A stretch of 57,365 nt of DNA, the filler included, from Stramenopiles sp. TOSAG23-6 (taxonomy: Eukaryota): the NCBI GenBank assembly GCA_900128565.1. It is 3 parts of 3 records of this genome, joined end to end, with 100 filler letters (N's around TTAATTAATTAA, not from the genome) between each part and the next. Parts side by side here need not be neighbours in the genome. Positions count along the whole stretch, not along the records: positions 19,223 to 38,295 come from LT636056.1; 2 more parts are not named here. The stretch is one strand, 5' to 3'. The notes under the pieces were generated by a model, which made no database searches, was not told where the DNA came from, and saw only the letters and a list, made by a program, of their open reading frames with translations. This document shows, piece after piece, positions 3,610 to 54,824 of this stretch. The first letter of the stretch is position 1. Each line of letters starts with the position of its first letter. The position numbers were made by a program, and so were the translations under genes.

Positions 3610-3667
3610 AAATATTTTTATTATTATTCTGAACTCGCCCTTATTATATTTTTAAATTTTAACATTA

Positions 3668-9600: not shown

Positions 9601-12600
9601 CGACATCATTCCATGTCGCTCCACGATCTCTTGTAATCGAAGCGAGATTGTTAAAATACATCCTATTATCCCACTCTTCTGCCACAGATCTTTTATCATG
9701 ATGAATTTCAACATCAGCTTTTGGGAAGAATTCGTGTTCAGTAATCTTGTGAAGACCAACTAGCTTCCCACTAGGAGTATCAGAGAGAGCTTTATTGACC
9801 AATTTGTTATAGACATTATTCTTTTGAAGAGCTTCCTTTGTTTCAGTCCGCAAACCATCAATTGGTGACCAATATGGAACAAGTAATTCGGGCGAATCTG
9901 AATCTTTTATATCGTTTTCGACAGCGAATGGACATTCGATAAGTGCAAAATCATAAGATCGAATGCTGCCAAATGGGATGTTGAGTGTCACAATTTCATA
10001 TTCACAAGAGGATGGAACAGCTGGTACATTAAAGAATGGAGCTTTAGGAGTATATGAGTCACATCCAGGGTCGTACTGTTTATGGGTTTCCATCAATTTA
10101 CAGTAATTTTCAACATAATTATCACAATCAACTGCGTCGCTGTACGTTGCAGCAGCGCTAATGCATGTTTGATGCTGACAAGGTGTACCGAATTTATCTG
10201 CACTAAAAGCAGAGTAAGGCTGAATGAAAGGCTCAAGTCTGTGATTTTTACAAAAGCCACAGCCTGTGAAATCTTTTCCAAAGGAACCTTCAGCAATAAA
10301 CGTTTGTTCATCCGAATAGCTCTGACATTTTCCTGAAGCAGAAACATTCATGCAACACATTTGACATTCTTTTCCAGGGTTAGGACACACGAAATTCGAT
10401 TCTATGTAAGTACAATCCTCCGAGCACCCAGATGCTGGATTGCCCCCGTCATCGCATCTCTCTCCATATGTTACTACTCCATCACCACATACACTGAGAT
10501 TGCGACAAGCGTCGGATTCCCAAGCCCCTTCATCATTACAAAAGTCAATGTAGCTTTCTGCACACTGCAAAATATTTTCTACATAAAGAGATCCTTTTTC
10601 CTTTTCACACTTCGATTTCATTTTTGCTAGAACAGAACCATCTACAATCACCAATTTGGAATCTTTTTCGGGTTTATCTACCAAAGTTCCATTTTTTTTC
10701 ATCTCTTCAAAATGCCAGGAATCTTCGTTTGGTCTAACGAATCCTTGTGTTGCACTTTCTCTAAGTACACTTTTATGGAAAATTTCACAACTCCCCTCAT
10801 TTGCATCAGAAACTGAAGTGCTAAAAACTTCAATACAAGAATCAAGTGTACATGGATCTACTTTGTCGCTTCTTGTTAACCAATTTTTATCAAATGAGCA
10901 ACTGTCAAGACATCCAGGGTCCTTGGGATTTGCTTTACAGTAAGTGTAAATGGAATCAACACACATCTCTTCACTGTGATTCTCATGCTCATCTGTATCG
11001 CCTAGACTCAAGTTTGTGTCATGTTCATATTGACAATCAAGTAAATCACAATACATTTTCAAACCTGGGTCTTCTTTTTGATCTTTACTTCGAGAATACT
11101 TATTCAAACAGTCACCTCCTTTATTATTTATGTTCCCATCATCTTTCACGTTGTTTTCTTCTCCAGCATTTGGTTTTGGTGATGGCGTTGGTGTTTTCGT
11201 GTTTGGTTGTTCTGCAAGCATACGCTTATGCTCCATATGATTCCATTTGTATAACATTCGACGATGTTTCTGCTTAGTTTGTCTCTCGGCAGCTATCAGA
11301 AAGCACGAATCATCTTCCATACAACGCTTTGCTTCTGGCAAGCATTTTTTTGCACTGTCATTGGATCTCGAACTTTTGACTAAAGTGCATAGTGCATAAC
11401 ACTTTCCGAAAGCTATTGTTTCTTTTGAGCACGTCTTACTTGCATCATGAAAACATTCGAAATCATCAAAAGAATCACCTTGTTTGTTGCATATTTTTTC
11501 GCATTCAAAATCCAACTCTGTTTCAGATTTAGGATCGCTGGTTGCTGGCATATTATTATTTGGAAAGTCTAAGCCACCATCAGGTTCTTCAACATAACAT
11601 GGCTTGCACTGTCTGGAGATACAACCAAAGAAATCATCCCAATTACCACCTTGTTCTGTTTTATCTCTGAATTCAGGAATAGACGTCATGCACGCACTTA
11701 CGTGACAAGTATCTTCGTTGCAACTTTCTGGGCTACCTACTGGACAGCAACTAAAGTTTAGGGCTTTTGCAAGTGAATCGGCACGTGATGTATCCGCACC
11801 TCCAAATTCTTTGTTCTTTTGATCATTAATACAAGTTTTCAGTGCCCTTGCTACAGGGAGAAGCCTACTGTCTTCCACACTGAGTAGCTCAAGCCAATGA
11901 AATTCACCAAGACATTCAGCTTCATCGTTACGATTAAATTCCATACAACTTGCATACTGATCAGGACACCATTGTTTGGCTTTGTCCTTTGATGGCATAA
12001 TCGTGTTCATAAAATTACAACATCCTGACCCGCATTTATCTAACTTACTTTCACACTTCCGATCTTGTTTCATTAGTTCAATCCAGTCATTTGTTGATCC
12101 ACGGTTTCTATCAAAAGAATTAAATCCTAACCTTCTTCCTTTTTTATTTTTGGATATACTTTCCAAACGTCGATGTCCAACTTCCTCCTTGGGTTGAAGA
12201 TCGCTTTCTTTTGTTTTATCGAGTTCAATTTCTACAGTTTTTAACGATGCAAGATTCTTCACTTTAGTATGCAAACAAGCAGGATGTATTGTGAAAAAAA
12301 ATATTTTACAATTTTTTTGTTAGGTACAAAGTTTTGCACAAAAACAAATATTTTACATTCAATTTTGAAAACGTACATCAGATCTACATGTTTTGAGTTT
12401 AAAGGATTCAAAGATATTCCAGCCATAATGACCACATTTTTCGTTTTGACAAACACTTTTATCTGTAAATGCACACTCTGAACTATCGAAATTATAATCG
12501 CCTCGAGCTACTGTTTTCATAAAGCGAGAGCAACCAGTTGGCGTACATGAATTGTCCTTTTTACAAAATTGTTGAACAGCGTGAGAGCACACAGGCCCTG

Positions 12601-17587: not shown

Positions 17588-19049
17588 TCAGGCTAAAGCA
17601 GGCCAATCCGTCGAGCTTACAATTGAAGTCTTTTGCGAAGTGTCTCTTTTCTTTTCGAGTAATTTTCTTTGTCTATTTTGCTTTGTACTTTCTTTCGCTC
17701 GACTCCGCTGTTGCGAGACATCTTCCACCATTTTAGAAAACTTTTCTTTGGTACTTTCATCTTTTTCTAGTTTTTCTACTGATTGCAACAGATTAGTTGC
17801 TTTAGCGTAAGCACCAATTTCTAAAAGTTTCGGTATATTTAACATTGCCAATTGAGTTTTGACGACGCCACTTAATCTAACAGAATCGACAAATTTTGGA
17901 TTTAGTTTAATAGCATCATCCAATAGAATCTCCGCTCCCAGTAAATCATCTTCAGATATCTTCTGTGTTGCTAACTTCACCAATTGTGTTACAGCAGAGT
18001 TAGCCGATGATTCAAATGTATATATTGTCAAAAGACACGAAATTACAAAAAAAACGTTAGGTATAAAATTTCGTATGAAAAAATAAATAAATTTGAAATT
18101 GAAATTGAAAAAAAAATAAAACATACATTCTTCAATTGAGAATGATTTGGTGACAGAGATAAACCACCAAGAGCTGATAAAGCTGCTTCAATCAAATCAC
18201 CTCTACTGAAAGCGTCGTTACTACGATTCACAAAATCATTTAATTCTATTTCCCAATCGTGGCGAAGTGTCTGCGAAAGTTTTACCACAGCCTTGAATAC
18301 ATCAAATGTACCATCAGGATTAATAATTCCAATACAACTCATTTTGATTCTTTTACCTATTGCTTTTCCCATCTCCCTCCGCTTCAATGCATATATAATA
18401 GGGGTATCGTGATCTTTTGAGTATTGAATAATTTCACTAACACACTTATCAAGACCGGAAGAACCCTCATCAATATTTGTACTAACAATCAACATACGAA
18501 GTTTTCCATTCTTGGCACAACGGTGAACTTCTCTCATACCAAGTACAATTCTTTTTTTCTTTGAATTTATTGTCGATTTTGAACTTAATCTTGCTCGTTC
18601 ATGAAAAAAAAACACCTTTTGTAAAAGTTCGATGACCAATTTGTTTAATTCTTGTGATAATTTTTGTTTTACATATTCACGAACGCCCAAAATATTAGGC
18701 GTTCGAGAAATATGTTTTTCAATAGATGAAAGTTTTGAGTATATATTTGAACCAGATACTTTTTCAAGGACATTTTTAGCATTCATTGTTTCCGTATTTT
18801 GAGTATCTTTGGGATCTTTGGGATCTTTGGGTAAAATGTCATTCTTCTCATTCGCGCAAATAATTTCATCTGAAGATTGTTTTGTGTTTACATTTTCATT
18901 ACTATTTGTATCTTTGCTCATACGATTATTACGAGTTTCTTCTTTCTTCTTCATATTCTGTTTCAACTGTTTCCTTCTCTGAGCTTTCTTTTTTGACTCC
19001 TTTTGTTTCCTTTCGATATTTTGTGCTTCCTCAATGGCAAGTATTTGTA
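17588..19049 (-). CDS. SECISBP2: SECIS-binding protein 2-like (L7Ae domain) with TPR-like tail; 5'-truncated by gap; exons 19049-18127 and 18019-17588
   Basis: REYVKQKLS...KKRIVLGMREV...GLDKCVSEII...PIIYALKRREMGKAIGK matches the SBP2 RNA-binding region. Confidence 0.8.
18020..18126 (-). mobile_element. Introner-like repeat intron, GT...AT, 107 nt
   Basis: aat|GTATGTTTTA...TTTATACCTAAC...ACAATATAT|aca ttt gaa. Joins two overlapping out-of-frame ORFs; there is no AG in the intron. Confidence 0.75.
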
Positions 19050-19122
19050 ATGTATTGTGAAAAAATATTTAAAAAAAAAATCGTTAGGTACAAAATTTCG
19101 TACGAAAAATAAATTCGAAATT
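19050..19122 (-). mobile_element. 3' part of an introner-like intron, cut by the assembly gap
   Basis: TTCGTACGAAATTTTGTACCTAAC...CACAATACAT directly upstream of the SBP2 exon. Confidence 0.8.
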
Positions 19123-19222
19123 NNNNNNNNNNNNNNNNNNNNNNNNNNNNNNNNNNNNNNNNNNNNTTAATTAATTAANNNNNNNNNNNNNNNNNNNNNN
19201 NNNNNNNNNNNNNNNNNNNNNN
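19123..19222. other. Artificial 100-nt scaffold linker
   Basis: Ns flanking TTAATTAATTAA (stops in all six frames). Confidence 0.95.
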
Positions 19223-19300
19223 ATATTTCAAAAANAAATCGTTAGGTACAAAATTTCGTACGAAAAAAAAATTCGAAATTGAAAGAAAAATAAAACATAC
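19223..19300 (-). mobile_element. 5' part of an introner-like intron, cut by the assembly gap
   Basis: cat|GTATGTTTTA...TTCGTACGAAATTTTGTACCTAAC. Confidence 0.8.
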
Positions 19301-20405
19301 ATGTTGTTTCGCTGTTTGATTTTGCCCAAAGCATGATTGTAATCTCATCATTGATACCCAAATCTCCCGCAGTCATCAATTGTTGATTTATAAGTTGCTT
19401 TCCACTTGAAAAATGAAACGAAGGACGATTGCCATTATCATTACCATCATTAAATACAGGCTTTTGGGCGTCTTTACACTTTTGCGAACAGTCAGCTTTA
19501 GCCATACATGCTTTAAATTCTGCGTTGCCAAAAGATCCAATATTATCGTTGTCATGTTCTGAATCCAAGGGTAAATGTATAATAGGCATTTTCTCGGTCC
19601 TACCACTGGTGCTGTCGAATGCAACATAGCAAGTTTGTGGATTTTTTTTATCATCAGCTGAATCGGAATCATATTGTGAAAAACAGGTCGTTGGTTCTGC
19701 GCTGTTCGAACCATCAAAGAGATATCCGATACCGCTACGATTATCTCCAACTCTATCTCTGACTGGATGACTTGAAACAACTGTCGTTCCATCGGGCGCA
19801 GTGTATGATTTCGTCCCACTTGTCCCTTCACAGTTGCGTTGTGGACACGAGAGGTCAATTCTGCCCATACCTGGAAACTTTGCTTGTTCAAAAACGAAAT
19901 ATCGTTTGGAACACACATAATGAGCTGCGGTATTCGAACAAGATTTTGTTAGAACAGACTGACCATAAATATAAAGACATTTTGAAGTTCCTTCAGTAGG
20001 TTGACCTGATCCCCATGGAAATTCCGACCCTGTTACTGAGGTACCATCCGTCATTATATATTTCGCTTTTGTATCGCAGTCTGAAGTACAACTTCCACCC
20101 ATCCAAACATCATGTGTTCCACTAATTTTGTCAGTGATTTCATTCACTTGATTTTGCGTATGCGGAACAGCAAGTATCATACCAGCATCGATACATTTCT
20201 CACTTGCTTGTTTCCACGTTAAAGTTTCTTCAACCACAACGTAACCATCATTGCTTGATGATAATCTACGCCTCGCGTGCTTTCGTTGGTGTGACGAATC
20301 AACTTGTGTATTACGTTCAGCTGGTGGTATCTTGGCGCAAAACACCATGGAGCTGAGTAATAAAGTACAAAGTACACTTTGTACAATCATCATATTCATT
20401 TTCAT
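19301..20405 (-). CDS. Secreted C-type lectin domain protein, 3'-truncated
   Basis: Signal peptide; LTWKQASEKC...LA...VWMGG...WGSGQP...C...C...YVC is a CTLD pattern. ITIMLWAK may begin a LamG-like domain, then intron and gap. Confidence 0.75.
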
Positions 20406-20724
20406 CTTTATTGCAGAAAGAAATTATCTTATACGTCGTAATCATTAGTTACTGGTTATTACCGGCTACTTTACAAACAAAAACAAGAAACGGAAAAGCC
20501 AATTGGTATTTTTTTGAAACGGAAAAAAAATGGTTTCATCCAATGTGTACCAATTTAGTACAAACGTAGAAAAACCGAAAGTCTCCGAATTTCTCAAATT
20601 ATTATTTTTGAATGTGTGACAAAAAAGATTTCTTCGATAGAGAATATCGATATGGCGAATTTTATAAATTTTACTCTTCAATAATTACGAATGTATATTA
20701 CATATTCTAATTTATTATAGTCAA

Positions 20725-23700
20725 ATGCTGTATTGCCATCATGATATGTATTTCTCATTAGCAATAGTTACAACAATATTGGCATTTGCTGGAAATTCTC
20801 GTGGAACTACTGAAATATTTGGTCCACATTTTACAGACAACTTATCTTCGGAAGAGACATCAACGTATAGAATAAATGGTTCTTATTTAGAGGAGCTGGA
20901 CGAATCATCTAATAGAATGTGTTATAGTGAATTGTCTTCAAATGGTATTGATATTGTTCCTTCAAGTAGATTTGATTATCTATTACAGGAACGATTACGT
21001 TTCCTAGGAAAGAAACGAGTAAAAGACCTGAAAGATCCAGCTGTAGCATCTTTGCCGAATGTAAACGTGATTTCCCCCAAAGTATATCCTTTGTGGTTAG
21101 AATTGTCAGTACCTTTAAGAAAAAAGATGTTATCTGCCGGTGATGGTGATCGAGATGGAAAGAATAAGAATTTCCCTATGAAACCTATACTATCTCAGTT
21201 ACGTGAAAGGTACGATGTGAGAGAGTTATTTCAAGGTGGAAGTCATGGCGAAGTTTGGCGAGCTATCAAAAGTGTTTATAACCATGAAAATCATTCAGAC
21301 AATTACACCAAAGATAAAGCAAGAAATGCTGAACATGTAAAAGAAATATCATTTATACTCAAACGAATGTTTCTAGAAAATGTATGTCTTTAACATGAAT
21401 TTTAATTTGTTTTATAGAAAATTTTATACCTAACAAATTTCGAATTTCAAATATTTCCCCAAAAAACATGGAGAGTATGTAAGACTTGCAGGATTAAGAG
21501 AGATCTATTTTGGTGAATTGCTCAAGGGAAAGCCACACATTGCAAGATTTGTAGAATTCTTTGAAACAAATAGTTTTGAAGAAAAATGTAATGCAGACCC
21601 AATTAATAAAAATACCAACAATCAAAATACAAACAATCCTAATAAAACAAATACAAACAATCCTAATAAAACAAATACAAACAATCCTAATAAAACAGAT
21701 ACAAACAATCCTAATAAAACAGATACAAACAATCCTAATAAAACAAATACAAACAATCCTAATAAAACAGATGAAAAAACAAAATCAGATTTGTGGCTAG
21801 TATTTCATGATGAAGGGAGATCTCTTCGAGATTTTTTATATAGTCGTCATGAGTTAAGCAGTGGTGCCGTGTATGTATGTTTTATTTTTTTTTCAATTTC
21901 GAATTTATTTTTCATACGAAATTTTGTACCTAACGGGTTTTTTTGAAATAGTTTTCCAAAATACATGAACCATCATCTTTATGGCGGGAACTCCGAACGG
22001 GTAAAGGTGGTTTAAATGTTCTTCGAGGTATTTGGTTACAAATTACCGAAGGCGTTGCACTTTTACACCAAATGGATATCACGCATCGCGATTTGAAACC
22101 TTCAAATCTTATTATTTCTCTACCCGAAGATGTCTGTTTTATTTTTTTTCAAATTCTACTTTTTTTTTCGTAGGAAATTTTGTACCTAACAATTATTTTT
22201 TGAAATATTTTTCCAAAATACATGGTTCAAAACCTATAGTAAAAATAGCAGATTTTTCATCTGCCGTGAATGGTCATTCTTTGAAGTTTCTGTATGGAAT
22301 GAAAGGACCAAGTCAAGATGAAGAAACTGTTGAATATCAGCCTCCAGAAGTTTTATTCTCTATTGATATTTCAGATACATATAAAGAAGACGAAACCACA
22401 AAACAATATGATGAAACCACAAAAAAATATGAAAAGAATAAACAGGAAATGAAAAGTGGTTCACCATACTTTAGTGATAATCCAAAAACATATGATTTAT
22501 GGACTCTCGGAGTTATTTTCCTTGAAATGATTTTAGGTACACAGCATGTTTTTGCCGTAAGTGCGAGGACATTTGCTAAACTAGATCATAAAATGAGACA
22601 AGAGAAAAGATCAGATGCTGAACGAAGACAGCTTCTAATACTCACTGGCCTTGCGGAATGGTGTGTGTTCCCAGAACCAAATGCATCATCTTCTGAATAT
22701 AATACAATGAAAGATAAAAACAAAATCTACCTTCCAAAATCGTGGTCATCCAATTATAAACAAAGTCATCATTCGAATAAATTTCATTCCCGGGTTAAAA
22801 CAAGTGGGACAGCTTTGATTAGTCAAGGTGAATGGTGCGGCCTTGAAGCATTTAATCGAACATTACATCGGCGAGATCCTCTCGCTGGTATGTACGTTTT
22901 CCTTTCATTTTTAATAGAAAATTTTGTTCCTAACGAATTTCAAACTACATCAGCGAGATCCTCTCGATGGTATTTACGTGTTCATTTTATTTTTTATAGA
23001 ACATTTTTTACCTAACAAATTTTAAACGTAAAACATATTGTTTCGTAATACATTGGTTTGGGATATGAAAGTCGATGGGCTGTGGATGTACGTTTTCAAA
23101 ATTGCTTTTTTTTTATTTTTTCATACGAAATTCTGTACCTAATGATTTTTTGTAAAATATATTTTTTTACAATGTATCTTTTGTGGCGGTTACTTCGATG
23201 GCATGCGTGGGATAGATTGCCGGTGGAACTTGTCCTTCAACATGCATTTTTTGTTGGTCCTTATACTTGTGATGCTGATGATGCGTGTACAGGTAAAGAA
23301 TTTGCATTACCTGTACGTTTTCATAAATAATTTCAAATTTATTTTTATTTTTCATACGAAATTGTGTACCTAAGATTTGTTTTTTTGAGATGCTTGTTTT
23401 CATCATGAATTTCAAATTTGTCATATTTTCCAAAATTCATGGTGAACGCGACGAATTTGTGGTAGCATTACAAAGCAATTCTCTTGATAATTTGAACCCA
23501 TCAAAATCTTTTATGGAGTCAGAAATTGGTACACGAAATCATCCGATTATTCCAGTACCATTAGGCAAGGAAAATACAGAAATAAATAAAAAAGTAGAAA
23601 AGGTAGATAAAATTTTTGAAGACTCATATAGGGACCGACCTATACAACCAGAAAAATTCTGTTGTGCTTCTTGTGGTCGTTGCTTTGATAGAGCCAAGAG

Positions 23701-25331
23701 GTACGTTTTCATGATGCATTTCAAAAACGTTTTTTATTTTTTTTTTTTTGTATGAAATTCCGTACCTAACAATTTTTTTTCTAAAATATTTTTTTATTAC
23801 ACATTTGTGACCGGCACGTTATTGCAAGACGCCATAATGAAGATAAAGATCTTCCGTCATATTGCTGGCATAAACATGAGCATAAAAAAGAAATGTTTTG
23901 GGAATGCTCCACAAATATAAAACGAAACGTAGGTGGTCTTGAGAATACTCGATTATATGGCTGGTGTGGAACGCCTGGACGTCGAAATTATGGCATGGAA
24001 GACTTTGCGTCTGTTGGCTACTTAAATATAAAAAACGTCGTATTTTCAAATGAAAACAAAGTTGATTGGTTCGCTTTGTTTGATGGGCACGGAGGTAATG
24101 GTACTGCTTCATGGAATGCTGGCTTATATAATGATAGAAGTAATAATGTAGATAATGAATATTTAGGAAAAGAGGATGATACGGTCAATAAACACAGTCA
24201 AAATCTTTCTAAAACAAACCATGGTTTACACGTACATCTTGCTGCTACAGTAGCTAATTTTTTATTACTCCCGAGCAGTATTTTAAATACAAGTGTTGAT
24301 GATATTTCAGATTTGAGTGAAAATTCAATGGAATATTTGAATGATGTGAATGAAATTCATGAAATAACAGAACAACACAAGGGTCGCGTTTGGTGGGAGA
24401 AGGAACTTCTTGAAGATGCCATCAGTGAAGCATTTGATGCAGCTGATGAAGAAATATTGAATATGGTGGAGAATGAAAATAATGATGAAATAAATGTACC
24501 TCAGATTATAGGAAAGTCTGGATCTACTGCAACTATGTATGTTTTATTTTTTTTCAAATTCGAGTTTTTTTTCGTACGAAATTTTGTACCTAACAAAAAA
24601 CCATTTGAAATATTTTTCCAAAATACATATTACTAATGGGTTCTGAAACTTTAATGATAGGAAATGTTGGTGATTCGACTGCTATTTTATGTTGTGATGA
24701 AAATGATGAACCTATTGTTTTAAGCGAAGACCATTTACCCAGTCTACCGTCTGAACGATTACGTATTGAAAGTATCCCTGGTGGTCATGTACGTTTTCAT
24801 GATGAATTTCGAATTTATTTTTCATACGAAATTTTGTACCTAACGAATTTCGAATGTTTGAAATATTTTTTTTAATGCATGTTCATTGTCCTTCACTATC
24901 TGATATACATCATGGTTTTGGAACTTGTCGAGTTCAAGGGCAATTAGCGGGTACATTTTTATCATTAATTTCAATTTTGTTTAGTAGAAAAATTCCGTTT
25001 CTAACAAATTTCGAATGTAATATATTTTCACAAAAGATCAGTCTCACGATCACTTGGAGATTCCTCTTTGAAGCCTTACGTCTCTTCCTCTGCGTTTACT
25101 AGTCAATATGATTTCAAGGGATATGAAGAGTTTGCTATTATAGCTAGTGATGGACTATGGGAATCGCTATCTTTTAAACAAGCTGTAAGTCTTGTGCGTG
25201 ATTCTTTTTATGAAACGAGTCATCTCCGAACTGGTGAAACCTTATTTGAGGGGGCAGCAAGAAGGTTAGTTGAAGAAGCATACTTTAGAGATAGTGGAGA
25301 TAATATTGCAGCTTTAGTTATAGCTGTGTAA
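20725..25331 (+). CDS. Protein kinase - C2H2 zinc finger - PP2C phosphatase fusion, ~1191 aa, 11 exons
   Basis: After removing 10 family introns: GGSHGEVWRA, FILKR, HRDLKPSN, IADFSSA, YQPPE, YDLWTLG; CASC-x12-H-x5-H; GRRNYGMED, LFDGHGG, SGSTAT, NVGDS, GQLAVSRSLGD, IASDGLWE, DNI. Exon lengths sum to 3576 nt, a multiple of 3. Confidence 0.88.
21382..21469 (+). mobile_element. Introner-like intron, GT...AT, 88 nt
   Basis: aat|GTATGT...TATACCTAAC...AAAAACAT|gga. An in-frame GAG 6 nt downstream is an alternative acceptor. Confidence 0.75.
21625..21770 (+). repeat. Coding tandem repeat, 24 bp x ~6 (TNNPNKT[N/D])
   Basis: Repeated aatacaaacaatcctaataaaaca inside the kinase domain. Confidence 0.95.
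21875..21966 (+). mobile_element. Introner-like intron, GT...AT, 92 nt
   Basis: tat|GTATGTTTTA...TTGTACCTAAC...CCAAAATACAT|gaa, in frame to HRDLKPSN. An internal TAG 15 nt upstream is also in frame. Confidence 0.8.
22132..22223 (+). mobile_element. Introner-like intron, GT...AT, 92 nt
   Basis: gat|GTCTGTTTTA...CCAAAATACAT|ggt links HRDLKPSN to IADFS. No AG is in phase with this donor before DFS. Confidence 0.85.
22892..23053 (+). mobile_element. Introner-like intron, GT...AT, 162 nt, with internal duplication
   Basis: ggt at|GTACGT...TAATACAT|t ggt gives RDPLAGIGLGYESRWA. Confidence 0.75.
23088..23177 (+). mobile_element. Introner-like intron, GT...AT, 90 nt
   Basis: gat|GTACGT...TGTACCTAAT...ACAATGTAT|ctt. 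No AG inside. Gives WAVDLLWRLLRW..DR (kinase subdomain XI). Confidence 0.8.
23313..23440 (+). mobile_element. Introner-like intron, GT...AT, 128 nt, composite
   Basis: cct|GTACGT...CCAAAATTCAT|ggt. Includes a second 5'-half copy from about 23389. Confidence 0.7.
23701..23804 (+). mobile_element. Introner-like intron, GT...AT, 104 nt
   Basis: ag|GTACGT...CGTACCTAAC...TTACACAT|t restores exact C2H2 spacing. Confidence 0.85.
24537..24628 (+). mobile_element. Introner-like intron, GT...AT, 92 nt
   Basis: at|GTATGT...CCAAAATACAT|a gives the PP2C motif SGSTATILLMGSETLMIGNVGDS. Confidence 0.88.
24789..24880 (+). mobile_element. Introner-like intron, GT...AT, 92 nt
   Basis: cat|GTACGTTTTCAT...TAATGCAT|gtt. 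No AG in the intron; in frame to RVQGQLA. Confidence 0.85.
24951..25041 (+). mobile_element. Diverged family intron ending in canonical CAG, 91 nt
   Basis: g|GTACAT...TTTCTAAC...CACAAAAGATCAG|tc gives GQLAVSRSLGD. Confidence 0.8.
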
Positions 25332-25491
25332 TGAATAAACAAATACAAAAAGGATATATATATATTTACTGTATAAATTTATTAGTTACTTTTACAGACA
25401 TCGTTGTGTTTTCATAACTGAATACGAAATACAACAGTACTGGTATACTTTATTGTATTAAATGTATTTCATATCCAATTGTCACGTTTAT

Positions 25492-27089: not shown

Positions 27090-27832
27090 TCACTTTTCTT
27101 TTGGTTTAAAATAAAGGTAATAAAGAGCTATACCACCCCACATTAATAGAAGAAAAATAACAAGCGAGTTATATAAAAAATATGTCAAATTCGAAATTCG
27201 TTAGGTACGGAATTTGGTACGAAAAAAAAAATGAAATGTATGATGAAAACGTACATAATATACCAGAATTTAGACGTGAAGCCCCCAAAATATTTTCCCT
27301 TTGATTTTTTATTTCCTCGCTTCTTTGAAGGTTTTGAAGGGTTTACATCGACGGCCACAGAAATTGGATTTTCTACTTCATTCTTTTGATTATTTTCTTT
27401 TTTTGATCCTTTTGATTTTTTACGGCGTCGTTTTTTCTTACGTCCTTTTTTGGGGACTTTTTCGATTTTTTCTGTCTTCTTTGAGTCTTTTGAGTCTTGT
27501 GGTAACGAAGTATGTTCTCCATGTTGTGGACTGTCTGGAGCATGATCGTGACTGTTTCTGAGCCAAACTTCAGAAGAATCTAAACCAACAGCAATTTTGT
27601 TCTCTTTTATCCTGGTGCTTTCTGCAACATCAGGATTAACCACCTCGTGAGCTTCCACTGCTACTTTGTTTTTGTTGTCTTCAACTCGAACGTCACTCTT
27701 TTCTGTTGGTTCTGTGGTAGATATCGCTGATTTTGCAACTGGAGTAGCACTTTCCTCTTGTACGGGCATAGTTGATTCTAAAGTGTCTGAATTATCTTTA
27801 CGGCGGGAAAACGCTCTCTTCAGCTTTTTCAT
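27090..27832 (-). CDS. Lys-rich tail-anchored membrane protein, ~214 aa; exons 27832-27255 and ~27156-27090
   Basis: Removing the family intron yields a C-terminal TM segment KFWYIIFLLLMWGGIALYYLYFKPKEK. Confidence 0.6.
27157..27254 (-). mobile_element. Introner-like intron, probably GT...AT, 98 nt (acceptor uncertain)
   Basis: at|GTACGTTTTCATC...CCGTACCTAAC; 3' end diverged. GTTAT|t gives the TM frame and there is no nearby in-phase AG. Confidence 0.65.
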
Positions 27833-28025
27833 ACTAATTGTGTGCTATCCTTGGATACGAAAGGCCAATATCATATATTAATAACGGTCGAAAAAACAAG
27901 AAAAGAAAAAAAAAAACCGCCGGAACCATGGGTACCGGGTAACTACCTACATGTCAACTGAAACGAGTAACTGTAAATCAATTTTTCCTTTTTAGTCATT
28001 CACAACTACACCCTGGAAACAGGCA

Positions 28026-38395: not shown

Positions 38396-38449
38396 TTTGT
38401 ACCTAACAAATTTTAGTTTTTTTTTTTGAAATATTTTTCCAAAATACAT
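38396..38449 (+). mobile_element. 3' part of an introner-like intron, cut by the gap
   Basis: TTTGTACCTAAC...GAAATATTTTTCCAAAATACAT. Confidence 0.8.
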
Positions 38450-39244
38450 GGAGTTTGTTGCAAATTTTAATGCAGCGTATGATGCTCTAGGTGCTGGAAC
38501 TGACGGTTTACTAAAAAAAGGACTAGAATTATCAATGCAAGTTCAACGTGGTGTAGTTACATTAGGTACTTCAATAATTGAGAAAAAACAAATTCGTAAA
38601 TCTGGGCCATTCAGGTATACATTATTATCTCAGTTGACTGACAATGATGCTTTGTTATTTACTCGTCCAGGACCTCTCGCTAAACTTGCACGCTTTATAT
38701 CATCCGCAAAACGTCAAGTTGATAAACGTTGGCGTGGGCGTAAAAATGTACCATGTACGTTTTCATCATGAATTTTAAATTTACTTTTTTTTTCATACGA
38801 AATTTTGTACTTAACAAAAATAATTTTGAATATTTTTTACAATACATATATTTTGTGTTGCCTGGATGATAATAATTCTAGATTTGTTATTGTTGGTATT
38901 GTTGGATCATCGAATCCAAATACAAATACCGATGCTGGTATGTCTCTAATCGATGTCTCCCAGAGTGTTCGTTTAGGGCGGGCTTTTGAACTTGCTGGGA
39001 AAGAAGTCAATGGTACGTTTTCATAATGAATTTCAATTATTTTTTTTCGTACAAAATTCCGTACCTAAAAAAAATTGTCAACCAAAAAAAAAATATTTTT
39101 TTTCACAATACATGTAGTGTTTCAGGAGAAGAGAATCAAATGCAAGAAGTATACGGTTTCGATAAAGCCGTAGCGACAGTACAGAAAAATGATGTTCAAG
39201 CATTTTTGTCAGTTTTGATGGAAATTCTTGAAGGTGTTCATTGA
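38450..39244 (+). CDS. CDC45: CDC45 C-terminal part, 5'-truncated; exons 38450-38754, 38848-39012, 39114-39244
   Basis: NFNAAYDAL...GLELSMQVQ...IIEKK...FRY...FTRPGPLAKLARF...PYILCCL...VIVG...GRAF...FD...DVQAFL follows the CDC45 C-terminal pattern. Confidence 0.8.
38755..38847 (+). mobile_element. Introner-like intron, GT...AT, 93 nt
   Basis: cca t|GTACGTTTTCATCATG...ACAATACAT|at. In-frame stop inside and no AG inside. Confidence 0.85.
39013..39113 (+). mobile_element. Introner-like intron, GT...AT, 101 nt
   Basis: aat g|GTACGT...CACAATACAT|gt, in frame. A CAG 12 nt downstream is also in phase. Confidence 0.7.
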
Positions 39245-40494: not shown

Positions 40495-40530
<36 letters not shown>

Positions 40531-41650: not shown

Positions 41651-43165
41651 ATGTCGCATCTTCCTGAACCTTCAGTTTGGGGTTTGAGTCCTCTCCATTG
41701 GACATTCACAAAACTATTTATAGTTCAATTGCATGCTTTAGAAGAGCCTGATCAATATCTAGACACACACTGGTTGTATGGTTGTCCTATAACACGAGTA
41801 CACATTTTTGGAACTATTGTTAGTGTCTCACAGAAATCGAAATTCTTGACATATGGTATAGATGATGGCACTGGTGTCGTAGATTGTCTTTTGTGGAAAC
41901 GAGATACAACTGAAATAAACTCGGATATCGTTTCTGATGAGGGAGACGAAAATAGTACTTTATGTTTGGGAGACTCTGTTTGTGTGTATGGAAGGTTACG
42001 AAGTGCGAAACCGCCTTACTCTCTTCTGCGAAGTATTACTATAGACTCTATATCAGTTATCCATGTACGTTTTCATCATGAATTTCGAATTTATTTTTTT
42101 GTACCAAATTTTGTACCTAACAAACTTCNAATTTTGGAAATATTTTTGCACAGCACATGACTTAAATTTAGAAGCCCACCATTGGCTTGAGGTTGTCGAT
42201 TTAATGCAAACAATATATCCACAGGGTTCATCACATTTCACAAATTGTATAAAAAGTAGAGTAAAGGAAGTAAACGTGAAAAGAAAAAAAATTCTCAAGT
42301 ACGTTTTGATCAAATTTTATTTTTTTTTACTCGAAAATTTCAAATTTGACCAAATTTTTATGATTTTCAAATTCGCCATATTTTTTTCACATGTAGTTCG
42401 GACACATCATCAACGTCTTCTGTCAAGACAGATAAAAATGAGTCGGCTTTTCTTGATGCTGTAAAGATGTATATACTCAACAATTTTGGTCCTTCTTCAA
42501 CGATTGTGTGGAGCTCAATGTACGTTTTTATTATGAAATTCTATTTTTTTTTCATACGAAATTTTGTACCTAACAAAAAACATTTTGAAAAATATTTTTT
42601 CATGTAACATATTTTCCAATCCTAAACTTCGTGATATTGCTCAACGCCAAGCAATGCATCAAACTAAAGATAAATCAATGATTTCAGCACTTGTACATAA
42701 AATATTTATACGAGCAACTAATCAACTCATCTCTCAGAACTTTTGGTATTTATCGAATAAAGAATGTGACGAATATCGACTTTTAAGTCACAAACTTGCC
42801 TTAGCCAATGAAGTTCGTTTTTTGTATAAATATAACGGTGTGGATCAAAATAATGGCGAAAGGGCTTCATCTTATGCAAATGGATGGCAAACGAAGGATT
42901 CAAACAAAACATTATTGTCAAAATCAGAACTAATTGAAAGTCTTGGTCGCGTGTACGTTTTCATCTCAAATTTCAAATTTGGTTTTTTTTTTATACACAA
43001 TTTTGTACCTAATGAATTTTACAAAATATATATATATATATTTCACAATGCATACCTCATTTGGCGACATTGAGCCAAAATTGCATTATAGAAAAAATAA
43101 ACCAGTTATTATGGGAAGGTGTCATTTATGAGGAAAATTTTGAATTGTACGGATGTGTTAACTAA
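41651..43165 (+). CDS. STN1: STN1-like CST subunit (OB fold plus winged-helix-like C-terminus), ~376 aa, 5 exons
   Basis: PITRVHIFGTIV...YGIDDGTGVVDCLLW...LGDSVCVYGRL...DLNLEAHHW; C-terminal LLWEGVIYE. Exons 41651-42064, 42159-42298, 42397-42519, 42611-42952, 43054-43165. Confidence 0.8.
42065..42158 (+). mobile_element. Introner-like intron, GT...AT, 94 nt
   Basis: cat|GTACGTTTTCATCATG...CAGCACAT|gac. The CAG 5 nt upstream is out of frame. Confidence 0.85.
42299..42396 (+). mobile_element. Diverged family intron ending in canonical TAG, 98 nt
   Basis: aa|GTACGTTTT...TTCACATGTAG|t. Using the family-type CAT end would give an immediate stop. Confidence 0.7.
42520..42610 (+). mobile_element. 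Introner-like intron, GT...AT, 91 nt
   Basis: at|GTACGT...TTGTACCTAAC...GTAACAT|a ttt. No AG in the intron or in the next ~55 nt. Confidence 0.8.
42953..43053 (+). mobile_element. Introner-like intron, GT...AT, 101 nt
   Basis: gt|GTACGTTTTCATC...CACAATGCAT|a opens the EGVIYE frame. An in-phase GAG lies ~20 nt downstream. Confidence 0.75.
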
Positions 43166-52400: not shown

Positions 52401-54824
52401 CACGAATTCCAGCAGTTTTACAGAGTTTCACCGCACCTGGTACTTGAGGTCTAGCAGGATCAATCATAGCAAAAAGACCAAGGAAGTTAAGTGGTGTAAA
52501 TGAATCTTCGTGTGGTGGCATTTTTGGGTTTTGAGGGGCATTTCGGTCATTTCCAATTGGAAAGTTAGCGTTGTCTTCATCATACTCGAAATCTTTACCG
52601 TACTTTCGTGGAAGCTCAAGTTCACAAAAGCCAAGAACACGAAGACCATCTTCTGCGCATTGTTCCTGAAGAGCAATGATTTTCTCCTTTTCTGCTGCGT
52701 CGAAAGGAACAAGGTCAGCTTTACCAGAACCATTATCTTTCCAAATTTTATCGCACCTATTCCAAATTCTTTCTGGTGCTCCTTTCATCACAAGTAAAGA
52801 TGATTTCTTCTCATCATCCCAATGAATACCAACTTGGTATTTATTTTTAGAGTTAAAAGGTATTTGGGCAATTCGTGGATATTCTTCGTTGCATTTAGTC
52901 ATATAATTAGACAGAGCTCCTTCAGTATCCAAGTTACCGTCAGCGTCTTTAGAATTCATCATCTGTGCGAACTTAGCTAACGCAGATTCAGTAGCATCAC
53001 CAAGTGGTTTCCAATTATATTGTTTTTGTTTACGACCATCAATGTCGACGATAGTCATAAATGGTTTTGGACGACTGGTATCAGCGATACTTAGCGCAGG
53101 GTTATTTGGATCCGGTTTTTTATGGTATAATGTTGTATTATCCCATTTAACATTATTGCACAATGTGGCACAACGCAAGAGCTTGTCAAAGGTTCCTCTT
53201 TTTTTAATTGATGCAGCGGTAACAGTATCGGGTTTGTCAGCACGGGAACCAGTATCGGCCTGGTATGCACAATTATCAAATACAACTCGTTCAACAGTCA
53301 TTTATTGTGAAAACAAAAAAGTGTGAAAACATTTGTTAGGTAAAAAACAAATTACGAAAAAAACATTTAAAATTCGTAATGCAAACATACATCATATTTT
53401 GAGTCAAAGTTCCAGTTTTATCCGAGCAAATACAAGAAGTTGATCCGAGCGTTTCGACACCTTCAAGATTCTTTACGAGAACATTATTATTCGCCATTCG
53501 ATGGGCAGTTAATGCCATACACACAGTTACAGTCGCAAGTAAACCTTCAGGTACATTAGCAACAATAATTCCAATCATGAAAACAAGGTTTGTAATCATT
53601 TCTGTTTTGATGATAATCCAACCGAAAAGAAAAAATGAAATTCCCAAAATGAAAGCAATCGACGAAACTATAGTGACAAAGTGATGAATTTGTTTGTTAA
53701 TAGGCGTCTGTACAGTCTCTGTGACGGTTGTTAGAGAAGCAATACGACCCATAACAGTGTCATCACCCGTTGATACTACAATACATTTCATCGATCCTTT
53801 AACGACCTCCGTACCAAAGAATGCAAGATTTCGTGTTTCAAGAGGATTCTCATCAGTGCAAGAAGTTTCACGTTTTACGGGTTCAGCTTCACCAGTAAGC
53901 GATGCATTGTCAACTTCAACAGTTCCTGATACTGATAAAACACGGACATCAGCAGGTACTTTATTTCCAGCCTTCAACTTAATGATGTCTCCAGGGACGA
54001 GCATCGTTGCGTTAATTTCCTTAGGTTGGCCATCACGAATAACAATTGTTGTTGATGGAAGCATATTCTTAAAACTGTCCATAAGATTAGATGATTTTCG
54101 TTCCTGGCAATATCCAAAAACACCAGTGAGAAACACTACCGCAGCAAGAACTATACCTAAATAAAGATTATCTTGTTCTTTTTTCAAACCAAACCCAACG
54201 AAGCACAAAGCGGCACCACCCCATAGTAAAAGTGAAAAAAATCCCGTCATCTGCTCCATGAATTTGATGAATTCACTCTTTGTCTTTGGTGGAGTAAGCT
54301 TATTTTCACCATATTCATTGATTTTCTCGAACCACAACTGTTCACTAATTCCCTCATTCTTCGACTCCACTAACACGAAACCACCATCAGAAGTCATATC
54401 AAACTCAAAGTGACTTGCAAGATCATTTCTGACATCCCCAATGTCCATCGTATGCCATTTGAGCTTCAATTCCTTCTTCAAGTTCCCCAAATCCTCAACT
54501 TCTGCACCGCCAAAGCAAGGACAGGAGAAGTTTGCCTTATTCGAGGTTTTCGTATTTTCTTCTAACGATTTCGCCCCTGTTGAGTTGAAAAGATATAAAG
54601 TCAATGGTACACATAATGAGCTACATTGGTAAAGATAAAGAGTATAATTAAAAGCACTGATGTACAAAAGTTATGAGAGATAATTCATTCAAAAATATTT
54701 GAACACAAAGGCTGGAACACTTACTCGAATCAATCGTAGACACCATCCCTTTCTGTTTAACAGTTGCGCCAATAACAGCGATTTCCGACGACTGACTTCG
54801 CGAAACATTGATTCTATCACTCAT
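49441..54824 (-). CDS. Na+/K+-ATPase alpha subunit-like (P2C), ~1714 aa; exons 54824-54725, 54576-53391, 53299-49441
   Basis: VANVPEGLLATVTV, CSDKTGTLTQN|MMTV, MKGAPE, TGDGVNDAPAL, LKKSIAYTLSSNIPEI, C-terminal NTYY. Confidence 0.95.
53300..53390 (-). mobile_element. Introner-like intron, GT...AT, 91 nt
   Basis: atg at|GTATGT...TTTACCTAAC...CACAATAAAT|g act gtt. No AG in the intron; restores DKTGTLTQNMMTV. Confidence 0.92.
54577..54724 (-). other. Canonical GT-AG intron, 148 nt, unrelated to the family
   Basis: tcg a|GTAAGT...TCAACAG|gg; phases match. Confidence 0.85.

What the first reader, a model, noticed from the sequence alone, without database searches (positions are those of the whole stretch)
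21873..21966. Transposon signature: AT target-site duplication and GTA...TAC inverted ends
Seen: 14 of 18 AT-ending copies, plus the truncated copy at 19300, are directly preceded by exonic AT. This gives AT-[GTAYGTTTT...AAAATAC]-AT with short imperfect terminal inverted repeats. The interior is built of palindromes (TTCGTACGAA, TTCGAA, AAATATTT, TTCATsATGAA). Two 5' subfamilies are visible (GTACGTTTTCAT and GTATGTTTTATTT). Inference: a MITE-like element inserts at AT, brings its own donor and branch site, and co-opts the duplicated AT as acceptor, so the insertion leaves the protein unchanged. Known Introners co-opt a canonical site in a similar way.
Basis: partly seen in the sequence, partly recalled or inferred. 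Interest (0 to 1): 0.85.

Follow-up and report, generated by a model that had tools for sequence, protein, structure and literature searches.

The report
Mobile intron family ending in AT
A marine protist genome is peppered with copies of one ~90-base mobile intron that starts with the normal GT but ends in AT instead of AG and almost always sits right after an AT in the gene, which matters because it shows introns spreading like transposons while using an unusual splice site that the one public gene model compared here misread.

Summary
The window holds 22 related ~90-nt introns, all on the sense strand of genes. That is 22 of the 23 introns I could find. Eighteen complete copies read GTAYGT...TACCTAAC...(Y)AT, and 14 of these 18, plus the half copy at 19300, follow an exonic AT (P about 1e-12). 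Removing GT..AT restores the reading frame for 17 of 18 copies. This includes a conserved ATPase motif and one gene with nine such introns. Only the GT..AT reading fits every copy; an AT..AC reading fits 9 of 18. DNA metagenomes hold the element at roughly 400-1400 times single-copy depth. A polyA RNA run does not.

So this is an introner family with a non-canonical AT acceptor, in a stramenopile whose closest protein bears a 'MAST3'-type label.

The exonic AT existed before insertion: it is the Met codon ATG in intron-less relatives. "Target-site duplication" cannot be told apart from "insertion next to AT", because the repeat is the same at every copy. The inverted ends are only 5-6 bp, there is no hairpin, and no transposase or non-genic copy was seen. 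I found no report of such a family in the papers I could search.

The parts
21873..21874 (+). Exonic AT directly before the intron of the finding. It is the last two bases of the codon TAT.
21875..21966 (+). Family copy, A-type, 92 nt, GT..CAT. This is the intron of the finding.
12284..12376 (-). Family copy, B-type, 93 nt, preceded by AT, ends CAT. It lies in a 3219-aa gene.
18020..18126 (-). Family copy, A-type, 107 nt, preceded by AT, ends TAT. The frame requires the AT at 18021-18020, not the ACAT four bases further on.
19050..19122 (-). 3' half of a copy, cut by the scaffold gap. It ends CAT.
19223..19300 (-). 5' half of another copy, preceded by AT and cut by the scaffold gap. An RNA contig leaves the genome exactly here.
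21382..21469 (+). Family copy, 88 nt, preceded by AT, ends CAT. An independent DNA metagenome contig retains it.
22132..22223 (+). Family copy, A-type (GTCTGT donor), 92 nt, preceded by AT. It splits the kinase between HRDLKPSN and KIADF.
22892..23053 (+). Compound copy, 162 nt, preceded by AT, ends CAT. It contains an 82-nt tandem duplication (22864-23027) of the last 28 exon bases plus the first 54 intron bases.
23088..23177 (+). Family copy, B-type, 90 nt, preceded by AT, ends TAT.
23313..23440 (+). Compound copy, 128 nt, preceded by CT, ends CAT. A second, internally deleted copy (about 23391-23424) sits inside its 3' part, again just after an AT.
23701..23804 (+). Family copy, B-type, 104 nt, preceded by AG, ends CAT. 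Its boundaries are unambiguous: GT..AT.
24537..24628 (+). Family copy, A-type, 92 nt, preceded by AT. It splits the PP2C motif GSTAT|ILLMG. An RNA contig stops at 24534 with 32 further letters.
24789..24880 (+). Family copy, B-type, 92 nt, preceded by AT, ends GCAT.
24951..25041 (+). Family member with a canonical GT..AG (nhmmer E=8e-6), preceded by GG. It splits the PP2C motif LA|VSRSLGD.
27171..27254 (-). Family copy with a shortened 3' part, preceded by AT. Its acceptor is unresolved. GT..AT gives a short C-terminus. A cut two bases further upstream at both ends, or two bases further downstream at the acceptor, gives a tail-anchor helix.
38396..38449 (+). 3' half of an A-type copy after the second scaffold gap. 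It ends CAT.
38755..38847 (+). Family copy, B-type, 93 nt, preceded by AT.
39013..39113 (+). Family copy, B-type, 101 nt, preceded by TG, ends CAT.
42065..42158 (+). Family copy, B-type, 94 nt, preceded by AT.
42299..42396 (+). The only intron outside the family by nhmmer. It reads GT..AG and is preceded by AA. Its ends resemble the family (GTACGTTTTGAT...TTTCACATGTAG), and the CACAT four bases before the AG is out of frame.
42520..42610 (+). Family copy, B-type, 91 nt, preceded by AT.
42953..43053 (+). Family copy, B-type, 101 nt, preceded by GT, ends GCAT.
53300..53390 (-). Family copy, 91 nt, inside the Met codon (AT|G) of the P-type ATPase motif DKTGTLTQNM-M-TV. It ends AAT.

Best explanation
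This is an introner: a short (about 90 nt) non-autonomous mobile element that becomes a spliceosomal intron wherever it lands in a gene.

Each copy brings a U2-type donor (GTAYGT), a yeast-like branch site (TACCTAAC, 30-45 nt from the 3' end) and a T-rich tract. Each is cut out as GT...(C)AT, so the acceptor is a non-canonical AT rather than AG. Copies sit directly after a pre-existing exonic AT, so that excision restores the original coding sequence exactly.

Shown: the family relationship; the high copy number; the sense-only genic position; restoration of the reading frame by GT..AT removal; the AT preference; and the AT pre-existing at one site.

Inferred: that the major spliceosome of this organism accepts AU at the 3' splice site, and that the family spread by insertion at AT.

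Not decided: whether the intron's own terminal AT is a 2-bp target-site duplication (element GTA...TAC), is carried by the element (GT...AT placed after AT, or TGTA...TACA placed between A and T), or came in through reverse splicing. I lean towards a DNA-level mechanism. The target (AT) and the ends (ATGTA/TACAT) are both palindromic, as is usual for transposases, but this is only a lean.
For: (1) Family. The similarity runs along the whole intron. Sixteen curated copies align end to end. The 17 introns aligned (the 16 AT-type copies plus the GT-AG member, taken from 24952) average 70% pairwise identity, range 59-90. An nhmmer profile finds 22 loci, 6 of them not used to build it.

(2) Splicing as GT..AT.
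- Joining exons across GT..AT gives single open frames for 17 of 18 complete copies. One 1210-aa kinase-PP2C frame needs nine such removals plus one GT-AG.
- The ATPase motif DKTGTLTQNM|MTV is restored with the same spacing as in 8 of 8 relatives.
- GTAYGT is a perfect U2-type donor.
- Copies 23701 and 39013 leave no room to shift the boundaries.
- An AT..AC reading fits only 9 of 18 copies. Elsewhere it gives AT..AA, AT..GT, AT..GC or AT..AT, or fails for lack of an exonic AT.

(3) RNA. A 1457-nt polyA-RNA contig (run X7) follows the exon to 19300 and then continues with sequence absent from the window. Another stops at 24534, two bases before the donor, with 32 more letters.

In DNA runs X3 and X4, bins holding A-type copies reach 1,936-12,622 summed depth, against 4-9 for unique sequence. 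In polyA run X7 the same bins reach only 3.8-22.9, against 0-21 for unique sequence, and just 71 contigs were laid (8,429 in X3). DNA contigs keep the introns: X3 record 1 spans 21382-21469 and record 3 spans 23313-23440.

(4) AT preference. It holds in 15 of 19 copies, P about 1e-12. About 90 further contigs begin to match exactly at the AT (loose ends at 21873 and 24535).

(5) The AT existed before insertion. The insertion site is a conserved Met codon. Five relatives carry an uninterrupted ORF there, on contigs of 4.8-5.0 kb.
Against: No read-level junction at a 3' AT could be displayed; the joints table was filled by repeat cross-matches. The acceptor therefore rests on reading frames and homology.

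One copy (27254) does not fit GT..AT cleanly.

Many AT and YAT dinucleotides lie between the branch site and the AT that is used. AT alone therefore cannot define the site, and I cannot say what does.

GT-AT introns are very rare elsewhere. Sheth 2006, passages seen, lists one conserved U2-type case and 7 U12-type cases.

For mobility at the DNA level there is no positive sign. There is no locus-specific duplication, and no inverted repeat beyond 5-6 bp. Folding is no better than shuffled sequence in 8 of 9 copies. There is no intergenic or antisense copy in the window. However, only about 13% of the window is non-coding, so seeing none of 21 there has P of about 0.05.

The copies are old (60-90% identity) and no empty allele was seen. 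The metagenome depth may include related strains or species.
Confidence: 0.75

Rival explanations
1. A MITE-like DNA transposon with ends GTA...TAC makes a staggered 2-bp cut at AT. The duplicated AT becomes the acceptor.
For: AT is found on both sides in 15 of 19 copies. The target and the ends are palindromic (ATGTA...TACAT). Introners that carry the donor and take the acceptor from a duplication are known (Chrysochromulina, figure legend of Gozashti 2022 seen). The 79% retention of the exonic AT is about what decay of a once-universal AT would give in copies that differ by 10-40%. Three of the four exceptions (CT, AG, GT) differ from AT by one base.
Against: The repeat has no locus-specific part, so it cannot be told from an insertion-site preference (Methods of Gozashti 2022). 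The four copies without an exonic AT still end in AT. The inverted repeat is only 5-6 bp and there is no hairpin. No known superfamily that I can recall makes an AT duplication; Tc1/mariner makes TA (recalled). No autonomous partner or non-genic copy was seen.
Confidence: 0.35
2. Same introner, but with no duplication. The mobile unit is GT...AT (or TGTA...TACA) and is placed after AT (or between A and T). The means is either a DNA enzyme that makes no duplication, or reverse splicing of the excised intron into other transcripts followed by reverse transcription and recombination.
For: All 22 loci are genic and on the sense strand. There are no clear inverted repeats and no provable duplication. 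This is the signature read as RNA-based for fungal introner-like elements (Gozashti 2022 passage). The intron's AT is invariant whereas the exonic AT is not.
Against: A strict palindromic dinucleotide target is more typical of DNA enzymes (inference). Sense-only genic copies are also what selection alone would leave in a genome that is about 83% coding. The copies fold no better than shuffled sequence in 8 of 9 cases, whereas fungal elements are said to be structured (recalled).
Confidence: 0.3
3. The introns are really AT..AC introns (ATGTAYGT...TAC), the known alternative terminal pair. The 'exonic AT' would then be the intron's own first two bases.
For: Where AT stands on both sides the boundaries can be shifted by two bases without changing the mRNA. 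A-first and C-last is a known compatible pair. Nine of 18 copies allow AT..AC.
Against: Nine of 18 copies do not allow it. Four have no upstream AT. Four would read AT..AA, AT..GT, AT..GC or AT..AT, and 27254 would also read AT..AT. ATGTAY is a poor donor, whereas GTAYGT is the U2-type consensus. The last two bases (AT) are more conserved than the AC before them.
Confidence: 0.05
4. They are minor (U12-type) introns, a class that tolerates GT-AT ends.
For: U12-type GT-AT introns exist and can be spliced (Sheth 2006 passages). GTATGTTTT matches 7 of 9 positions of the U12 donor GTATCCTTT (consensus recalled).
Against: The CC of the U12 donor is absent. The branch motif is CCTAAC, not CCTTAAC. 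It lies 30-45 nt from the 3' end instead of the roughly 10-20 nt typical of this class (recalled). A T-rich tract is present.
Confidence: 0.03
5. They are not mobile. Either these are ordinary introns of a species with very strict splice signals, or they are DNA segments removed from the genome itself, like ciliate IES flanked by TA.
For: Strict intron 'grammars' exist; earlier notes of this scan describe one in Ostreococcus. Short elements flanked by a repeated dinucleotide that interrupt ORFs recall IES (recalled).
Against: The similarity covers the whole length, not just the signals. Depth in DNA metagenomes is hundreds of times single copy. Relatives lack the ATPase intron. All 22 are on the sense strand, which DNA excision would not require. 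DNA contigs from an independent metagenome keep them.
Confidence: 0.02

Closest known systems
Introners of marine algae and protists (Micromonas, Aureococcus, Chrysochromulina, Symbiodinium, Florenciella; Gozashti et al. 2022 PNAS, passages and figure legend seen; Huff et al. 2016 recalled)
   Same: Short non-autonomous elements present as many sequence-similar introns in unrelated genes. They carry part or all of the splice signals, and excision restores the coding sequence. Some carry the donor and take the acceptor from the target site. They are found mostly in marine plankton.
   Different: Those families use GT/GC...AG. Here the acceptor is AT and the flanking repeat is AT. The duplication cannot be shown, and the inverted ends are only 5-6 bp. 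The host appears to be a heterotrophic stramenopile (label 'GSMAST32...'), a group for which I found no introner report.
Non-canonical introns of Fritillaria borealis (Henriet et al.; NAR 2026, abstract and passages seen)
   Same: Genome-scale use of non-GT/AG ends by the major spliceosome, including introns with a 3' AU. They have been linked to introner-type transposons.
   Different: In Fritillaria under 10% of introns keep GT/AG and both ends vary. Here the donor is a textbook GTAYGT and only the last base departs (AT for AG). The host is an animal there and a protist here. Whether U2AF is altered here is unknown.
Introner elements of Amoebophrya (Farhat et al. 2021 BMC Biol, passages seen)
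   Same: Repeated non-canonical introns with short direct repeats overlapping the exon/intron borders. A MITE-like origin is proposed.
   Different: Amoebophrya elements have 8-20 nt inverted repeats that form hairpins, 3-5 nt direct repeats and no fixed terminal dinucleotides. Here there is no hairpin, the ends are a fixed GT..AT and the repeat is 2 nt.
Rare GT-AT introns of animals and plants (Sheth et al. 2006 NAR, passages and tables seen)
   Same: The same terminal dinucleotides. They show that GT..AT can be spliced.
   Different: They are single cases: one conserved U2-type example and 7 U12-type among about 610,000 introns. Here 18 or more of 23 introns in 57 kb are of this kind.
Fungal introner-like elements (as summarised in Gozashti 2022)
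   Same: No clear TSD or TIR, and a strong bias to genes and the sense strand.
   Different: They have canonical GT-AG ends and are found in ascomycetes. Here there is a strict dinucleotide at the insertion site.

Membership tests
Introner (intron-generating mobile element) | Introns of unrelated genes are similar to each other along their whole length | tested here: met
   There are 22 loci in 9 genes. nhmmer E-values reach 1e-19, and 6 loci were found that were not in the model. Copies align end to end. Mean pairwise identity is 70%.
Introner (intron-generating mobile element) | Many copies genome-wide | tested here: inconclusive
   No genome is held. DNA metagenomes show 1,936-12,622 summed depth on bins with A-type copies, against 4-9 on unique sequence, and 8,429 contigs were laid in X3. 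This suggests on the order of a thousand copies, but related strains may contribute.
Introner (intron-generating mobile element) | Precise removal that restores the coding sequence | tested here: met
   17 of 18 complete copies give open joined frames. The ATPase motif and its spacing match relatives. RNA support is partial.
Introner (intron-generating mobile element) | Positions are lineage-specific (gain), not ancient | tested here: met
   Tested at one site only. Five ATPase relatives with ORFs on 4.8-5.0 kb contigs read straight through QN.MTV.
MITE / cut-and-paste DNA transposon | Terminal inverted repeats of about 10 bp or more | tested here: not met
   The ends are only ATGTA/TACAT (6 bp in the A-type; 10 with a bulge if T and A runs are counted). 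There is no end-to-end hairpin. z-scores run from -2.67 to +0.51, and 1 of 9 copies is below -2.
MITE / cut-and-paste DNA transposon | Target-site duplication with a locus-specific part | tested here: inconclusive
   The repeat is the invariant AT. Position -3 matches in 4 of 14 copies (read). The field's own criterion calls this ambiguous.
MITE / cut-and-paste DNA transposon | Copies outside genes and in both orientations; an autonomous relative with a transposase | tested here: not met
   None of the 22 loci is non-genic or antisense; a weak 32-nt antisense fragment at 618-649 has E=0.009. No transposase domain was found in the 13 long ORFs scanned. The rest of the genome could not be searched.
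U12-type (minor) introns | Donor RTATCCTT, and branch site TCCTTAAC about 10-20 nt from the 3' end | tested here: not met
   The donor is GTAYGTTTT. The branch motif TACCTAAC lies 30-45 nt from the end in 16 of 16 copies. The consensus motifs are recalled.
U2-type AT-AC introns | The intron begins with AT in an otherwise U2-like donor and ends with AC | tested here: not met
   This reading is possible in 9 of 18 complete copies only.
Helitron | Insertion between A and T without duplication; ends 5'-TC and CTRR-3' with a 3' hairpin | tested here: not met
The Helitron features are recalled.

The most novel reading that the evidence does not exclude
In this uncultured marine stramenopile the major spliceosome routinely uses AU as a 3' splice site. 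A transposon that duplicates its AT target has supplied that acceptor at something like a thousand sites. This would be an introner burst that did not wait for canonical AG sites, and so forced or exploited a relaxed 3' splice-site rule. The reading predicts altered 3'-site factors (U2AF small subunit, or second-step factors). It also implies that current gene models of this lineage are widely wrong.
Probability: 0.3. Interest if true: 0.85.

Novelty: new variant of a known kind. Interest (0 to 1): 0.66.

Why it matters
Introners are the best current explanation for bursts of intron gain. This family would add a case in which the new introns are non-canonical from birth (GT..AT). That bears on how far the spliceosome can be pushed by mobile elements, a question so far studied mainly in the tunicate Fritillaria.

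There is also a practical side. The one public gene model I could compare (P0001) matches the window's ATPase at 449 of 451, 326 of 331 and 257 of 259 aligned residues. Yet it misreads this intron (QNMM followed by YLYLIIV... instead of TVERV...) and cuts at least 20 false gaps into real coding sequence. Proteomes of this group that were built under a GT-AG rule may therefore be damaged wherever such introns occur.

Finally, both scaffold gaps of the window fall inside copies of the element. It also limits assembly.

Tried and rejected
- Whole genome: none is held. A census, a transposase search and a look at spliceosome genes were therefore impossible.
- Earlier notes of this scan: nothing on this genome or on this sequence. 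A word search gave only unrelated intron notes.
- More copies from public contigs. A 17-mer in viral contigs gave 6 loci, all chance matches by eye. A 20-mer in metagenome contigs gave 0.
- Transcript-derived proteins that might cross a junction. Searching with the exon 19302-20423 gave no hit at E<=1e-10 among 1,081 candidates. Short fragments of the ATPase reached 77% identity at best among the 120 listed, so none is from this organism.
- The search of cluster representatives gave one relative of gene G (P0241, 40% identity). Its similarity fades at the junction (E=0.22 beyond it), so it decides nothing.
- Read laying. The joints table was filled by cross-matches between copies, so no clean splice joint at a 3' AT and no empty allele could be read. 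Parts without cover are not interpreted.
- RNA folding of 9 copies found no shared end-to-end hairpin.
- Rfam and tRNA scans of the window found nothing.
- An N in copy 42065 kept it out of the folding.
- Literature. No paper holds both 'GT-AT' and 'introner'. None of the 15 papers listed (of 77 matching) for MAST-3, MAST-4, Incisomonas or heterotrophic flagellate contains the word 'introner'. Term searches in two MAST genome papers found no description of introns or splice sites.
- Supplementary tables of the introner surveys, which list species and families, are closed and may bear on novelty.
Full report
**What is at the coordinates**

The stretch 21873-21966 reads AT|GTATGTTTTATTTTTTTTTCAATTTCGAATTTATTTTTCATACGAAATTTTGTACCTAACGGG...TTTTCCAAAATAC-AT|G. 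It interrupts a protein-kinase reading frame. The upstream frame ends ...GCC GTG TAT and the downstream frame (leading to HRDLKPSN) starts GAA CCA. The frame is kept only if 92 nt are removed: GT..AT, or the same cut shifted by up to two bases.

The window is an AT-rich (about 36% GC), gene-dense eukaryotic sequence. No whole genome is held for it.

**How many copies, and where**

A repeat search and a core-motif search showed many relatives. I curated 16 copies, aligned them and searched the window with an nhmmer profile.
- Of 49 rows at E<=10, 23 have E<=1e-3. They make 22 loci, because 22903-22941 and 22983-23053 belong to one compound intron.
- Six loci were not in the model: the two half copies at the first scaffold gap, the half copy at the second gap, the two compound copies, and 24951-25036.
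- All 22 lie on the strand of the ORF they interrupt, in nine genes.
- Ten sit in one kinase-PP2C gene. There is none in a 10-kb ORF (27996-37994), and the 9.7-kb gene 3668-13420 has a single one near its 5' end.
- The only other intron I could find is 42299-42396, a GT-AG intron that the profile does not hit.

So 22 of the 23 introns recognised here belong to one family.

**Are they spliced, and at which bases**

Five lines of evidence bear on this.

1. Joined frames. Joining exons across GT..AT gives one open frame in every gene tested:

| Gene | Introns removed | Open frame |
|---|---|---|
| kinase-PP2C | nine GT..AT plus one GT..AG | 1210 aa |
| 41652-43135 | three GT..AT plus one GT..AG | 366 aa |
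| 38450-39250 | two GT..AT | 199 aa |
| ATPase | one GT..AT | 1712 aa |
| 3668-13420 | one GT..AT | 3219 aa |
| 17588-19049 | one GT..AT | 450 aa |

That covers 17 of the 18 complete AT-ending copies.

The exception is 27254, whose 3' part is shortened. There GT..AT gives a short hydrophobic end. A cut two bases off gives a textbook tail-anchor helix. I leave that copy open.

2. Homology. Copy 53390 lies in the invariant P-type ATPase motif. The joined product reads DKTGTLTQNM-M-TVERV. Eight of eight relatives whose sequences I read have QN[D/I/V/M]MTV with the same spacing.

3. The donor. GTAYGT is the U2-type consensus. In copies 23701 (AG|GT...CAT|T) and 39013 (TG|GT...CAT|G) the flanks leave no room for a shift to an AT start.

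4. The alternative reading AT..AC is possible in only 9 of 18 complete copies. Four copies lack the upstream AT. Four more would be AT..AA, AT..GT, AT..GC or AT..AT, and 27254 would also read AT..AT. GT..AT is the one reading that fits all.

5. RNA and DNA runs.
- A 1457-nt contig of polyA-RNA run X7 follows the exon down to 19300 and then continues for about 310 letters that occur nowhere in the window. So the transcript is spliced at this donor, and the scaffold gap hides at least one exon.
- Another X7 contig ends at 24534, two bases before the donor of copy 24537, with 32 further letters. This is what one expects if the ambiguous AT was given to the other side of the joint. The joint itself was not among the rows shown.
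- In DNA runs X3 and X4, bins with A-type copies reach 1,936-12,622 summed depth, against 4-9 on unique sequence.
- In polyA run X7 the same bins reach 3.8-22.9, against 0-21 on unique sequence, and only 71 contigs were laid (8,429 in X3).
- Depth of contigs is a crude measure, as the tool warns. Still, the contrast is what removal from mature mRNA predicts.
- DNA contigs of an independent metagenome keep the introns. X3 record 1 spans 21382-21469 and record 3 spans 23313-23440.
- The non-polyA RNA run X8 behaves like DNA here, which I cannot interpret.

**Anatomy**

The consensus is GTACGTTTTCATTATGAATTTCAAA...TTTTTTTTTCGTACGAAATTTTGTACCTAAC...TTTTGAAATATTTTTTCACAATACAT.
- The best-kept columns are the donor, the block around TACCTAAC and the last bases.
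- The branch-like A lies 30-45 nt from the 3' end in 16 of 16 copies.
- The last three bases are CAT in 16, TAT in 3 and AAT in 1 of the 20 copies whose 3' end is in the window.
- There are two subfamilies, and each couples its 5' type with a 3' type. A-type is GTATGTTTTATTT...TTCCAAAATACAT. B-type is GTACGTTTTCATSATGAA...TTTCACAATACAT.
- Only A-type bins show the extreme metagenome depth.
- Across the 17 introns aligned (16 AT-type copies plus the GT-AG member, taken from 24952), pairwise identity is 59-90%, mean 70%. The family is not young.
- The terminal inverted repeat is ATGTA/TACAT, which includes the flanking AT. It is one base longer in the A-type.

**The AT**

Fifteen of the 19 copies whose 5' junction is in the window follow an exonic AT. 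The exceptions follow CT, AG, TG and GT.

AT makes up 9.1% of coding dinucleotides, and 10.3% of those before GT. That gives P = 7e-13 and 4e-12.

Loose ends add that 38, 40 and 12 other contigs start to resemble the window exactly at the AT (21873, 24535), with unrelated sequence before it. So the AT is shared by many copies elsewhere.

The repeat stops at two bases. Position -3 matches the intron's third-last base in 4 of 14 copies. The first exon base after the intron is G in 9 of 20 copies, against 22% G overall.

At the ATPase site the AT is the first two bases of a conserved Met codon. Five relatives carry an uninterrupted ORF on contigs of 4.8-5.0 kb. So the AT was there before the intron, and the intron is a gain in this lineage.

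The two GT-AG introns follow GG and AA.

**What this does and does not show**

It shows insertion next to a pre-existing AT. It does not show a duplication.

Because AT is its own reverse complement and is the same at every site, three parses give identical sequences:
- AT[GTA...TAC]AT, with a 2-bp duplication;
- AT[GTA...TACAT], with none;
- A[TGTA...TACA]T, placed between A and T.

The authors of the large introner survey state that such invariant flanks cannot separate a duplication from an insertion-site preference, and they score them as ambiguous (Methods passage).

The four copies without an exonic AT keep the intronic AT. That fits later change of the exon base: three of the four differ from AT by one base, and 79% retention is in line with the divergence of the copies. 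It is equally what one expects if the element carries its own AT.

The nested copy inside 23313-23440 also sits after an AT, but that cannot discriminate either.

For a DNA mechanism speak only the palindromic target and ends. For an RNA mechanism (reverse splicing) speak the sense-only genic position and the lack of inverted repeats. However, selection would produce the same picture in a genome that is about 83% coding; no copy among 21 in the 13% non-coding part has P of about 0.05.

**What else it could be**
- Minor (U12-type) introns tolerate GT-AT. But the donor lacks the CC, the branch motif differs, and it lies too far from the 3' end.
- An ordinary strict intron 'grammar', as noted earlier in this scan for Ostreococcus, does not explain similarity along the whole length or the metagenome depth.
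- DNA-level excision, as with ciliate IES, would not require the sense strand in 22 of 22 loci. DNA contigs also keep the elements.

**Open problem: how the AT is chosen**

Several AT and even YAT dinucleotides lie between the branch site and the AT that is used.

In the copies read, the AT used is the first YAT after the T-rich tract, except in 53390, which ends AAT. This was read by eye and not counted copy by copy.

In intron 42299-42396 a CACAT stands four bases before the AG that the frame requires. The rule is therefore not simply 'CAT'. I cannot test the spliceosome genes.

**Who is the host**

The ATPase's best match carries the source label 'eukprot:GSMAST32...'. The next named matches are oomycetes and other stramenopiles, and seawater metagenomes hold the window. 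I take it to be a marine heterotrophic stramenopile of the MAST-3 kind; this is a lead from a label, not a proof.

That public model (P0001) matches the window at 449 of 451, 326 of 331 and 257 of 259 aligned residues. But it reads QNMM-YLYLIIVHTRP... across the intron and has at least 20 false gaps in real coding sequence. The GT..AT intron was evidently not recognised.

**Comparison with what is known**

Introners with co-opted splice sites are established in marine algae and protists. A later survey accepted only AG and AC as 3' ends when curating families.

Genome-scale non-canonical splicing is known in Fritillaria, where 3' AU introns occur and a duplicated U2AF is implicated. It is also known in Amoebophrya, whose introners have long inverted repeats and variable ends.

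GT-AT itself is a rarity elsewhere.

I found no paper with both 'GT-AT' and 'introner'. None of the 15 papers listed (of 77 matching) on MAST lineages uses the word 'introner'. Term searches in two MAST genome papers found no description of introns.

**Verdict**

It is unproven in its two specific claims, the duplication and the MITE nature.

The most remarkable part is the one the title did not stress: an AT acceptor used by nearly every intron in this region.

Noticed in passing
19123-19222 and 38296-38395: Both scaffold gaps (runs of N around a TTAATTAATTAA linker) fall inside copies of the element, so the assembly breaks at this repeat. An RNA contig shows that at least one exon is missing in the first gap.
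   Followed up: partly
49441-54670 (-), protein P0001: A public gene model of this ATPase is near-identical to the window. It misreads the GT..AT intron and has at least 20 false internal gaps, as if canonical introns had been forced into coding sequence.
   Followed up: yes
22864-23027: An 82-nt tandem duplication (85% identity) spans the last 28 exon bases plus the first 54 intron bases. The donor of the second unit is changed (GT to TT), and the whole 162 nt must leave as one intron.
   Followed up: partly
23313-23440: A compound intron. A second, internally deleted copy lies inside the 3' part of the first, again directly after an AT.
   Followed up: partly
window 22196-22225 joined to 24534-24537 in contigs of runs X3, X4, X8: Dozens of DNA metagenome contigs carry the last 24-29 nt of an element followed within 0-3 nt by the start of another (for example 20 contigs for 22224>24535 and 17 for 22223>24535 in X3). 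They could be tandem or dimeric copies. The tool warns that joints with sides under 30 are often repeat artefacts.
   Followed up: no
20668-25335 versus 27996-37994 and 3668-12283: Copies are strongly clumped. There are ten in a 3.6-kb coding sequence, none in a 10-kb ORF and none in 8.6 kb of another ORF. Local hopping, expression level or chromatin could explain this.
   Followed up: no
618-649 (+): A 32-nt stretch resembles the family core (nhmmer E=0.009) but lies antisense inside the coding ORF 111-1670 (-). It may be chance.
   Followed up: no
21584-21777; 39434-40273; 49262-49422: Three other tandem repeats: a coding repeat with 24-nt (15+9) spacing (NPNKTNT...) in the kinase gene; six 108-nt units inside ORF 39528-41318 (-); and three units of about 55 nt in the spacer after the ATPase gene.
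   Followed up: no
47558-47572; 295-329 and 454-488: Telomere-like CCCTAA/TTAGGG doublets. One lies in the spacer upstream of the pyrophosphatase gene and two lie inside a coding ORF.
   Followed up: no
run X8 on 19240-24954: A non-polyA RNA library shows element bins at 1,058-1,800 summed depth against 0-5 on unique sequence, much like DNA. It could be DNA carry-over, pre-mRNA or stable excised introns.
   Followed up: no
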